Assembly (NCBI GenBank): GCA_018653365.1
Contig: JABIAG010000002.1
Span: forward strand, 32,001-96,000
Direction: 5' to 3'
From: Candidatus Woesearchaeota archaeon
GTDB taxonomy: Archaea; Nanobdellota; Nanobdellia; Woesearchaeales; JABIAG01
DNA length: 64,000 nt
Shown: one piece after another, positions 10,121 through 11,330 of the stretch
Layout: each line of letters opens with the position of its first letter
How positions within the stretch are numbered: the first letter of the stretch is position 1
The notes under the pieces: generated by a model
Databases searched by the model: none
Told to the model about the DNA's origin: nothing
What the model saw: only the letters and a program-made list of their open reading frames with translations
Position numbers and translations under genes: made by a program

Positions 10121-10197
10121 TGGGGCAACCGGGATTTATGTCATCACTTCGTTCTGGACAAATCCCTATTGTTTGTAAACCAATTTAGGATAAGAAA
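10121..10197 (-). repeat. 17-bp duplication of the tRNA-Phe 3' end carried on a GAACGAAGTGA-capped hairpin
   Basis: 10121-10137 is identical to 10198-10214; hairpin 10131-10166 with loop motif at 10144-10154. Confidence 0.85.
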
Positions 10198-10302
10198 TGG
10201 GGCAACCGGGATTTGAACCCGGGACACCTGCGTCTTCAGCGCAGCGCTCTCCCAGTCTGAGCTATTGTTCTGGTTTCAAAAGCCGTAACTTCCAAAATCC
10301 CC
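10198..10302 (-). tRNA. tRNA-Phe(GAA) with a 31-nt intron at 4/5 (10268-10298)
   Basis: Removing 10268-10298 restores the acceptor stem GGGGCAA/TTGCCCC-A; canonical D, anticodon (CT GAA GA) and T arms; bulge-helix geometry fits. Confidence 0.9.
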
Positions 10303-10430
10303 AGTAAAACCCAGACAAGGTTAGGATTTATCATATATTTAAATGCTTTTCGTTTTTTTTCACTGGACATTTTTGTGCTGCACTGGACAAACGCTGCCCC
10401 AAAGTTTATAAAAAAACTTGATTCTGTTTT

Positions 10431-10573
10431 AAAAGAGCCTCGCGCAAAACTCTTTACAAAAACTTTTCCCTCAAAGAGGTCGGAACTGGTGTTCCTAAAA
10501 GTTTTTTGTGAGTTTCGCTGGTTGAGTCTCTTTTTTTGCCAAATCCAAAGTTTTGTGTAGTGAAAACTTTGGA
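10431..10573. repeat. Large branched inverted repeat (10431-10534) plus an 11-bp hairpin (10544-10573) upstream of the endonuclease gene
   Basis: AAAAGAGCCTC/GAGTCTCTTTT, GCAAAACTC/GAGTTTCGC, ACAAAAACTTTT/AAAAGTTTTTTGT, inner CCTC/GAGG and GGAAC/GTTCC; TCCAAAGTTTT/AAAACTTTGGA. Confidence 0.75.
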
Positions 10574-10583
10574 GGTTAAGAAA

Positions 10584-11330
10584 ATGAATAAAAAACCACT
10601 TTTAGTATTTGATGATGTATTAAGAACATACAAGTCTGAATATCACGGAAGAAAAGCATTTGAGAGTTACATGTCTTGGTTTCCGTTAATAGTTTCCCCT
10701 TGTCTTGCGGGAATTGTTGCAGATTTAATGTGTGATGGACATTTACAAGGTAAAAAATGGAGGTTTGATTACACTTCCAATTCTATTGAAGAGTTAGAGA
10801 GATTCAACAGAACGATTCATTCTTTATTCAAAGTTAAAGGTAAAGTAAGAAAGTGTACAACCAATAAATATGAAACTTTTAATCTAGGTGTAAATAACAG
10901 TCCTTTAGCAAGAGTGTTGAAACTTCTAGAAGTCCCTGCAGGAGCCAAGGTTTTATCTAGTTTTTCCATTCCTGATTGGATTCTTGCTGATAAGACTCTG
11001 TTTGGTAGATTCATAAATCGTTTAGTTAGTTGTGAAGGGTCTGTTGATGTAAAAAATAAATGTATTGACATTAGAATGTCAAAGTCTGAAGACTTGATTG
11101 TTGACGGTTTGTCATTCTTCAAAGATATTCAAAATTACTTGTGGAATTATTTTGAGATTAAAACAACAAACCCTTTTTTAGATCGAAGTTTCAATTTAAG
11201 AAAAGATGGGATAAAAACAAAGACGATCCGACTAAAAATAAAAAGGAAAGAATCTCTTATAACTTTCAACAAATTCATAGGTATTGATGATAAAATTAAG
11301 AATAAAAAATTAAAAAGAATAATTGGTTAA
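10584..11330 (+). CDS. Free-standing two-motif LAGLIDADG homing endonuclease (intein/DOD-like)
   Basis: LAGIVADLMCDGH and FINRLVSCEGSV motifs, IPDWIL linker; GGAGG upstream of ATG 10584; no intein splicing ends. Confidence 0.8.
   Translation: MNKKPLLVFDDVLRTYKSEYHGRKAFESYMSWFPLIVSPCLAGIVADLMCDGHLQGKKWRFDYTSNSIEELERFNRTIHSLFKVKGKVRKCTTNKYETFNLGVNNSPLARVLKLLEVPAGAKVLSSFSIPDWILADKTLFGRFINRLVSCEGSVDVKNKCIDIRMSKSEDLIVDGLSFFKDIQNYLWNYFEIKTTNPFLDRSFNLRKDGIKTKTIRLKIKRKESLITFNKFIGIDDKIKNKKLKRIIG

What the first reader, a model, noticed from the sequence alone, without database searches (positions are those of the whole stretch)
10350..11330. Free-standing LAGLIDADG endonuclease with a structured leader beside the intron-bearing tRNA-Phe
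Seen: a two-motif LAGLIDADG ORF, not in an intein or intron, divergent from tRNA-Phe. Upstream are a CACTGGACA direct repeat, a ~105-nt branched inverted repeat (10431-10534) and an 11-bp hairpin (10544-10573) overlapping the GGAGG ribosome-binding site. Known: phage homing endonucleases can be repressed by RBS-sequestering hairpins, and free-standing ones can home collaboratively with an intron that disrupts their target. Inference: the enzyme may cut intron-less tRNA-Phe alleles, with the 4/5 intron giving immunity. The structured region may be a cis RNA or an element end.
Basis: partly seen in the sequence, partly recalled or inferred. Interest (0 to 1): 0.72.

Follow-up and report, generated by a model that had tools for sequence, protein, structure and literature searches.

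The report
Homing nuclease, shielded tRNA, borrowed leader
A selfish DNA-cutting gene in a tiny (DPANN) archaeon sits at the front of the phenylalanine-tRNA gene, almost always together with a small intron that breaks its probable cutting site, and here it is kept quiet by a control region also used by DNA-repair genes and IS200 transposases; this gives a testable route by which odd archaeal tRNA introns spread.

Summary
Observation confirmed. ORF 10584-11330 is an intact, free-standing two-motif LAGLIDADG enzyme (D51 and E151 invariant), and the divergent tRNA-Phe has a true 31-nt intron at 4/5. In 73 dereplicated homologous loci the gene abuts tRNA-Phe. 64 carry an intron within tRNA positions 2-15; the 9 intron-less alleles all differ from consensus at position 3, 11 or 13. 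In one sample of 301 genomes, 5/5 carriers have the 4/5 intron versus 8/296 others, and a congener has the empty, intron-less site. Collaborative-type homing is likely (0.7) but cleavage is untested.

The leader is not specific to this gene. Its CACTGGACA box precedes TATA boxes of radA, repair and other mobile genes across the order. The long stem-loop plus RBS hairpin is a covarying module (not in Rfam) found before unrelated homing nucleases and IS200 tnpA, and is absent from most close homologues. It folds better on the antisense strand in 33/33 copies, so an art200-like RNA is possible.

The scan reported the tRNA-Phe pairing and the box before, in other genomes.

The parts
10584..11330 (+). 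Free-standing two-motif (monomeric) LAGLIDADG endonuclease gene, 248 aa, catalytic D51 and E151
   Evidence: (D51, G52, E151 invariant in 49 homologues)
10299..10302 (-). tRNA-Phe(GAA) exon 1 (positions 1-4)
   Evidence: spliced alignment; coordinates
10268..10298 (-). 31-nt ORF-less BHB intron at tRNA position 4/5, the inferred shield of the cutting site
   Evidence: splicing endonuclease gene present in the genome
10198..10267 (-). tRNA-Phe(GAA) exon 2 (positions 5-73)
10308..10316 (-). tRNA 5' leader segment that pairs with the D-arm 5' strand and supplies the outer helix of the BHB motif
   Evidence: median duplex -12.4 kcal/mol in 39 4/5-intron alleles versus -2.5 in 95 controls; the leader sequence changes together with tRNA positions 15-17
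10334..10343 (-). Probable TATA box of the tRNA gene
   Evidence: sequence; inference
10361..10389 (+). Two CACTGGACA boxes, 20 nt apart: order-wide promoter element upstream of TATA at repair and mobile genes
10405..10412 (+). TATA box of the endonuclease gene; predicted start of transcription near 10431
   Evidence: TATA-like site 14-27 nt before the modelled motif start in most copies; start site inferred
10431..10534 (.). Long branched stem-loop ending in a T tract; covarying motif shared with other homing-nuclease leaders and IS200 tnpA leaders; functional strand unresolved
10544..10575 (+). 11-bp hairpin burying the GGAGG ribosome-binding site (10571-10575)
   Evidence: P(SD paired) 0.97 here; over 0.5 in 22 of 26 copies
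10121..10197 (-). Duplicated 17-nt tRNA 3' end (10121-10137) behind a spacer holding a conserved 20-mer (10140-10159); separate feature, not linked to the endonuclease
   Evidence: same insert behind tRNA-Lys and tRNA-Ser of this genome; 3' duplicates in 3 endonuclease loci and 3 control loci

Best explanation
The gene is an optional, mobile homing endonuclease whose DNA target is the 5' end of the tRNA-Phe gene (inferred span: about positions 2-15, possibly reaching into the D-loop). It sits on the 5' side of that tRNA, contiguous with the tRNA promoter, the 5' leader and the 4/5 intron. When its DNA meets an uninterrupted allele, the enzyme cuts it and recombinational repair copies endonuclease, leader and intron together (inferred). 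The resident allele is immune because the intron splits the site; the host splicing endonuclease removes the intron from a BHB motif that the leader completes, so the tRNA still works (structure shown in silico, splicing inferred). Other lineages escape by introns at 9/10, 14/15, 3/4 or 2/3, or by point changes. Expression is tied to a host promoter box shared with radA and repair genes, so the enzyme would be made when recombination is active (co-occurrence shown, induction inferred). In this copy an IS200-type leader module, a long stem-loop plus an RBS hairpin, further damps expression (homology shown, repression inferred).
For: Fold and invariant catalytic acids. Patchy presence: 5 of 301 genomes, in five families; empty intron-less site between ssb and tRNA-Phe in a 96%-complete congener. 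Homologues in Woesearchaeota, Aenigmarchaeota and Iainarchaeota records. tRNA-Phe adjacent in 73 dereplicated loci, on the 5' side in 70; intron positions 4/5 x47, 9/10 x11, 3/4 x3, 14/15 x2, 2/3 x1, none x9. Same-sample contrast for the 4/5 intron: 5/5 versus 8/296. Introns at 37/38, 53/54 and 56/57 are common in controls too, so only the 5' introns track the gene. The 9 intron-less alleles (about six separate branches) all deviate at position 3, 11 or 13, versus 5 of 95 and 12 of 128 controls in two orders. The spliced target sequence occurs nowhere in the host genome. Box plus TATA in 96 of 101 genomes, far above the reversed control, before radA, Nre, a Hef-like helicase, a photoproduct-lyase-like enzyme, an integrase and LAGLIDADG genes, and before all six free-standing relatives found in this genome.
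Against: The 'deviation' rule for intron-less alleles was defined after seeing them, and kin are not independent. Five GGA-type alleles tested lack the gene, so deviation does not imply the enzyme. Eight genomes keep the 4/5 intron with no endonuclease remnant nearby. Three other tRNA genes of this genome begin GGGC-NNN-TAGCTCA, so the target must be discriminated by position 4-7 or the D-loop. The control pattern could not see 9/10 or 14/15 introns, so their background is unmeasured. The tree is a quick one with weak deep support. How DNA passes between these cells is unknown.
Confidence: 0.7

Rival explanations
1. Hitch-hiking: the enzyme cuts elsewhere near the locus (or is now a passenger) and the 4/5 intron merely travels in the same block of DNA, giving no immunity.
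For: Physical contiguity of gene, leader and intron in 70 of 73 loci would co-convert the intron regardless. Orphan introns in 8 genomes. Free-standing phage enzymes often cut hundreds of bases from their own gene (PMC2988022).
Against: Flanking genes and gene orientation vary while tRNA-Phe stays constant. Five different intron positions and three kinds of point change all fall within tRNA positions 2-15, which one inherited passenger does not explain.
Confidence: 0.15
2. The protein acts at RNA level or as a regulator: a maturase-like helper for splicing the acceptor-stem intron, or a WhiA-like domesticated DNA binder of the tRNA promoter.
For: Tight association with awkward acceptor-stem introns. 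WhiA is among the structural matches. Some LAGLIDADG proteins are maturases (own knowledge).
Against: Both catalytic acids are invariant. The gene is absent from 296 of 301 genomes. Eight genomes carry the intron without it, and nine loci have it without a 5' intron. The host has its own splicing endonuclease.
Confidence: 0.08
3. For the leader only: the long stem-loop works as a cis-antisense RNA (like IS200 art200) transcribed opposite the nuclease mRNA, not as a 5'UTR attenuator.
For: The antisense strand folds more stably in 33 of 33 copies (mean 7.4 kcal/mol; G-U pairs 86 versus 31). A conserved sense-strand A.C opposition alternates with A-T (16 and 9 copies), i.e. G-U/A-U on the other strand. 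The same test picks the transcribed strand for 67 of 90 tRNA introns. The motif occurs in IS200 tnpA leaders, and art200 is complementary to the tnpA 5'UTR (PMC4513863).
Against: No conserved antisense promoter was identified (the test was not completed). The motif starts at the predicted sense start site and ends in a T tract in the nuclease copies. A-rich bulges on the sense strand are typical of folded RNA (own knowledge). The second hairpin shows little strand bias (16 versus 9).
Confidence: 0.4
4. For the leader only: it is a DNA-level relic, an internally deleted IS200 fragment (MITE-like) that landed between promoter and start codon and has no regulatory role.
For: Clear homology to IS200 left-internal sequence; missing from most close homologues and from one paralogue in this genome.
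Against: The terminal hairpins seen at the IS200 ends are not part of the nuclease copies. All 22 non-IS copies lie in one orientation directly before a ribosome-binding site and ORF, mostly LAGLIDADG or HNH-repeat and mostly behind box plus TATA. 22 of 28 pairs covary. This genome has no Y1 transposase match.
Confidence: 0.15

Closest known systems
Collaborative homing: F-CphI and the psbA group I intron of cyanophage S-PM2 (PMC6083498)
   Same: Free-standing endonuclease next to a gene whose ORF-less intron is proposed to block self-cleavage; intron and gene can spread together.
   Different: Here a cellular archaeal chromosome, a LAGLIDADG monomer, a tRNA target and a 31-nt protein-spliced BHB intron that needs the 5' leader. 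Several intron positions and point changes substitute for one another. Cleavage is not shown.
Intronless homing by T4 SegB/SegF/MobE and RBS-sequestering hairpins of phage homing endonucleases (PMC2988022)
   Same: Optional gene between conserved genes, SegB in a tRNA cluster; hairpin over the Shine-Dalgarno.
   Different: GIY-YIG or HNH enzymes in phage under late promoters; here a repair-gene promoter box and a fixed tRNA isotype.
Archaeal monomeric LAGLIDADG enzymes I-DmoI, I-Tsp061I and intein endonucleases PI-PfuI, TliVMA
   Same: Two-motif fold with an acidic residue at each motif end.
   Different: Those are encoded inside introns or inteins; this gene lies outside its partner intron and has about 35 extra N-terminal residues.
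IS200 tnpA leader: terminator repeat, SD-sequestering stem-loop and antisense RNA art200 (PMC4513863)
   Same: Long stem-loop and RBS hairpin in front of a selfish gene; the motif is found by covariance model in archaeal IS200 tnpA leaders (54-66 bits in the intact-looking copies).
   Different: No sequence comparison with the Salmonella leader was made; here the module has moved in front of many unrelated homing nucleases and behind a host promoter.
Non-canonical BHB tRNA introns and the mobile-element model of tRNA gene disruption (PMC3293823)
   Same: Intron gain at a tRNA locus linked to a mobile element.
   Different: That element encodes a recombinase and splits the gene; here a nuclease gene co-occurs with introns confined to one 15-nt stretch.

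Membership tests
Monomeric LAGLIDADG homing endonuclease | Two LAGLIDADG helices with the alpha-beta-beta-alpha-beta-beta-alpha fold twice | tested here: met
   AlphaFold model pLDDT 96; Foldseek E 3e-10 to 4e-6 to TliVMA, PI-PfuI, I-Tsp061I, I-DmoI
Monomeric LAGLIDADG homing endonuclease | Acidic catalytic residue at the end of each motif | tested here: met
   D51 and E151 invariant in 49 homologues
Monomeric LAGLIDADG homing endonuclease | Pfam LAGLIDADG score above curated cut-off | tested here: inconclusive
   20.1 bits versus cut-off 22.5; many homologues carry PF14528
Monomeric LAGLIDADG homing endonuclease | Site-specific double-strand cleavage | not testable with these tools
   needs an assay
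Collaborative homing unit | Optional free-standing endonuclease gene with an empty allele in relatives | tested here: met
   5 of 301 genomes; empty site in congener G001
Collaborative homing unit | Adjacent ORF-less intron co-occurs with the gene | tested here: met
   64 of 73 loci with a 5' intron; 5/5 versus 8/296; 9 exceptions carry point changes
Collaborative homing unit | The intron interrupts the recognition site and prevents cutting | not testable with these tools
   inferred from the clustering of introns and substitutions only
Archaeal BHB tRNA intron | 4-bp central helix between 3-nt bulges, flanking helices, removal restores the cloverleaf | tested here: met
   central helix 4/4, intron helix, acceptor 7/7; outer helix from the leader, offset by a few unpaired bases
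Intron- or intein-encoded endonuclease | ORF lies inside an intron or in frame within a host protein | tested here: not met
   own RBS, start and stop between tRNA promoter and ssb; 281 nt from the tRNA, opposite strand
IS200/IS605 element or its MITE | Subterminal end hairpins and a Y1 transposase in cis or trans | tested here: not met
   end hairpins seen in L280/L287 are not in the window leader; no PF01797 match in this 95%-complete genome
Known Rfam RNA (including LAGLIDADG-associated motifs) | Match at gathering score | tested here: not met
   only tRNA; other hits E 0.29 or higher
DNA-damage (SOS-like) regulon box | Shared element at fixed distance before TATA of repair genes | tested here: met
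DNA-damage (SOS-like) regulon box | Bound by a regulator and induced by damage | not testable with these tools
   no regulator identified, no expression data

The most novel reading that the evidence does not exclude
tRNA-specific homing nucleases are a cause, not just companions, of non-canonical archaeal tRNA introns: cutting at the tRNA-Phe 5' end repeatedly selects or generates new BHB introns (4/5, 9/10, 14/15 and others), which persist after the gene is lost. The nucleases are switched on through the host repair regulon and held down by an undescribed, IS200-shared antisense or leader RNA that moves between unrelated selfish genes.
Probability: 0.35. Interest if true: 0.85.

Novelty: new variant of a known kind. 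Interest (0 to 1): 0.7.

Why it matters
Why archaeal tRNA genes gain introns at odd positions is an old open question. This locus family turns it into a direct experiment, because matched natural alleles exist: intron-less consensus (congener G001), 4/5, 9/10 and 14/15 introns, and point variants. It would extend collaborative homing from phages and group I introns to cellular archaea and protein-spliced mini-introns. It also offers a family of compact nucleases with a predictable target, a new covarying RNA motif shared between IS200 transposase and homing-nuclease genes, and a promoter box that may mark a DPANN DNA-repair regulon.

Tried and rejected
Rfam at gathering and E-value thresholds: nothing beyond tRNA. 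Single-protein genome scan found no loci; the alignment did. 'Leader conserved in this protein family': rejected; most homologues with a box have it about 50-80 nt before the start codon and no hairpin, and only L041 and L083 share the long stem-loop. 'Direct repeat is an element end or integrase arm site': rejected; it precedes TATA boxes of host genes. 'Duplicated tRNA 3' end marks the endonuclease insertion': rejected; it is on the far side, occurs at two other tRNAs of this genome and is as frequent in controls. Apparent control introns in L188, L200 and L229 were parser errors corrected; control L205 was a neighbouring tRNA and was excluded. No endonuclease remnants near orphan introns. 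Five GGA-type alleles lacked the gene. The antisense-promoter scan failed and was not completed. Fisher tests overstate significance because of relatedness and are not relied on. Literature searches for LAGLIDADG with DPANN or Woesearchaeota gave 0 and 1 papers, the latter on group I introns; the 2026 Asgard tRNA-intron preprint does not mention homing. Longer or fused homologues were not searched.

Full report
Host and observation. The window lies in a 1.09-Mb genome; named homologues come from Nanoarchaeota/Woesearchaeota, so the host is a DPANN archaeon (inference). The ORF runs 10584-11330 with its own GGAGG and ends flush against the convergent ssb gene. Pfam is only suggestive. An alignment of 49 homologues keeps D51 and E151 invariant, the AlphaFold model is confident, and its nearest solved structures are two-motif LAGLIDADG enzymes of archaeal inteins and introns. 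It is neither in an intein nor in an intron.

The tRNA. Standard finders report tRNA-Phe with an unpaired acceptor stem. A spliced alignment places a 31-nt intron after base 4; removal gives 7/7 pairs, and the BHB central helix is perfect. The upstream leader at 10308-10316 pairs with the D-arm. Across 39 alleles with the 4/5 intron this duplex has a median of -12.4 kcal/mol against -2.5 in 95 controls, and it changes in step with tRNA positions 15-17. Intron and leader therefore form one unit. The genome encodes a splicing endonuclease.

Link between gene and tRNA. Ninety-nine related loci were fetched. After removing duplicates and loci cut by contig ends, 73 show tRNA-Phe beside the gene; one frameshifted copy (L089) shows none in the flanks held. 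The gene lies on the tRNA's 5' side in 70, divergent or in tandem; the three on the 3' side are intron-less. Intron positions are 4/5 (47), 9/10 (11), 3/4 (3), 14/15 (2) and 2/3 (1); nine have none, and all nine differ from consensus at position 3, 11 or 13. Such deviations occur in 5 of 95 controls of the host's order and 12 of 128 in a second order. This comparison is post hoc, and five such control genomes lack the gene.

Unbiased sample. Among 301 genomes of the order, five in five families carry a close homologue (over 320 bits; next 137) and all five have the 4/5 intron. Eight of the other 296 have it, in four families, with no endonuclease remnant nearby. That fits loss of the gene after fixation (own knowledge of the homing cycle) but also shows that the intron does not need the protein. 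A 96%-complete congener has ssb running directly into an intron-less tRNA-Phe with the same acceptor sequence. On a quick tree, 9/10 introns and intron-less alleles are scattered among 4/5 carriers, suggesting repeated escapes; deep support is weak.

Mechanism. Shown: intact fold, patchy presence, empty allele, isotype-specific docking, and clustering of introns and substitutions in positions 2-15. Inferred: the enzyme cuts there, the intron protects, and repair copies gene, promoter, leader and intron as a block. This matches collaborative homing as defined for F-CphI (PMC6083498). The uninterrupted site is absent from the host genome, but three other tRNA genes share GGG-N4-TAGCTCA with C at position 4, so specificity must use positions 4-7 or the D-loop.

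The direct repeat. CACTGGACA followed 12-18 nt later by a TATA box precedes all six free-standing genes of this genome that the family profile finds, and also the radA operon and a nucleotidyltransferase-helicase operon. The pattern occurs in 96 of 101 genomes (11 matches here versus 1 in the reversed control). In 30 sampled loci it precedes the small-gene/radA operon five times, a Hef-like helicase twice (name from own knowledge), Nre, a photoproduct-lyase-like enzyme, Cas4-like, integrase, KilA-N, Bro-N, IrrE-like and LAGLIDADG genes. It is best read as a regulator site of a repair and mobility regulon; its position upstream of TATA suggests activation (inference).

The structured leader. 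Most homologues that have the box place it 50-80 nt before the start codon, without hairpins; here about 150 nt are added. The long stem-loop recurs before two non-homologous LAGLIDADG genes in this genome, and the RBS hairpin before two. A covariance model from ten copies finds it in 26 of 150 genomes; 22 of 28 pairs show double-sided changes in the model-fitted alignment and 16 of 28 in the seed. Of 30 loci inspected, 22 lie before an ORF that is mostly LAGLIDADG or HNH-repeat (four have no or only a weak HTH match), usually behind box plus TATA. Eight are IS200 copies: four before tnpA (Y1_Tnp, E 1e-34 for the two scanned) and four decayed. The IS end hairpins are separate and absent from the nuclease copies, and this genome has no tnpA match. 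A second hairpin buries the Shine-Dalgarno in 22 of 26 copies, as known for phage homing endonucleases (PMC2988022) and IS200 (PMC4513863). The long stem-loop begins near the predicted transcription start and ends in a T tract, which suggests attenuation. It folds better on the opposite strand in all 33 copies, a test that favours the transcribed strand in 67 of 90 tRNA introns, so an art200-like antisense RNA is an equal rival. No expression data could be obtained.

Novelty. Each principle is known. Their combination in DPANN archaea was not found in the papers searched; the library lacks most subscription journals. The scan's own notes already describe the tRNA-Phe pairing and the promoter box in other genomes. 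I reached both before reading those notes and tested them here; they are not counted as support. The IS200-shared, possibly antisense, leader did not appear in earlier notes. Verdict: new variant of a known kind, interest 0.7.

Noticed in passing
window 10121-10197 (-); G000 C1:350257 and C1:230098: Three tRNA genes (Phe, Lys, Ser) are followed by a duplicate of their 3' end, preceded by a shared insert and a short arm complementary to the T-loop end; looks like a family of tRNA-targeting mini-elements or integration scars.
   Followed up: partly
L046, L047, L088, L090, L117, L124, just downstream of the endonuclease stop: Tandem-layout loci with the 9/10 intron carry an extra copy of the first 6-7 tRNA bases between the gene and the tRNA; possibly the stub of the invaded allele.
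   Followed up: no
L019:721-966 (G000 C1): An 81-aa protein with no Pfam match lies between the promoter box and radA; homologues head the radA operon in L317, L322, L323, L326, L327.
   Followed up: partly
L020:1250-1700 (G000 C1:142175 and 142239): Divergent pair of box-like sites with TATA, one before a GyrI-like gene (by eye), the other before an apparent short ORF or RNA.
   Followed up: no
L022:709-1335 (G000 C1:458208): A further free-standing LAGLIDADG gene of this genome has neither the box nor a hairpin.
   Followed up: partly
G000 C1:750850-751150 (L024): A heavily interrupted tRNA-like gene that ARAGORN did not list follows the LAGLIDADG gene at C1:751722.
   Followed up: no
G000 C1:592184-592264: Three tandem 33-nt repeats contain the same CATCACTTCGTTCTG core as the tRNA 3' insert.
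   Followed up: no
L148:3100-3894 (G003): A same-family genome has a different LAGLIDADG-like gene on the 3' side of an intron-at-38/39 tRNA-Phe, next to ssb.
   Followed up: no
L280, L287, L289, L283, L293, L295: An IS200 family with a 184-aa TnpA and AAAG-loop end hairpins, including decayed copies, occurs in several Woesearchaeales genomes.
   Followed up: partly
window 63839-63970 (+): tRNA-Leu with an intron of about 56 nt at the window edge.
   Followed up: no
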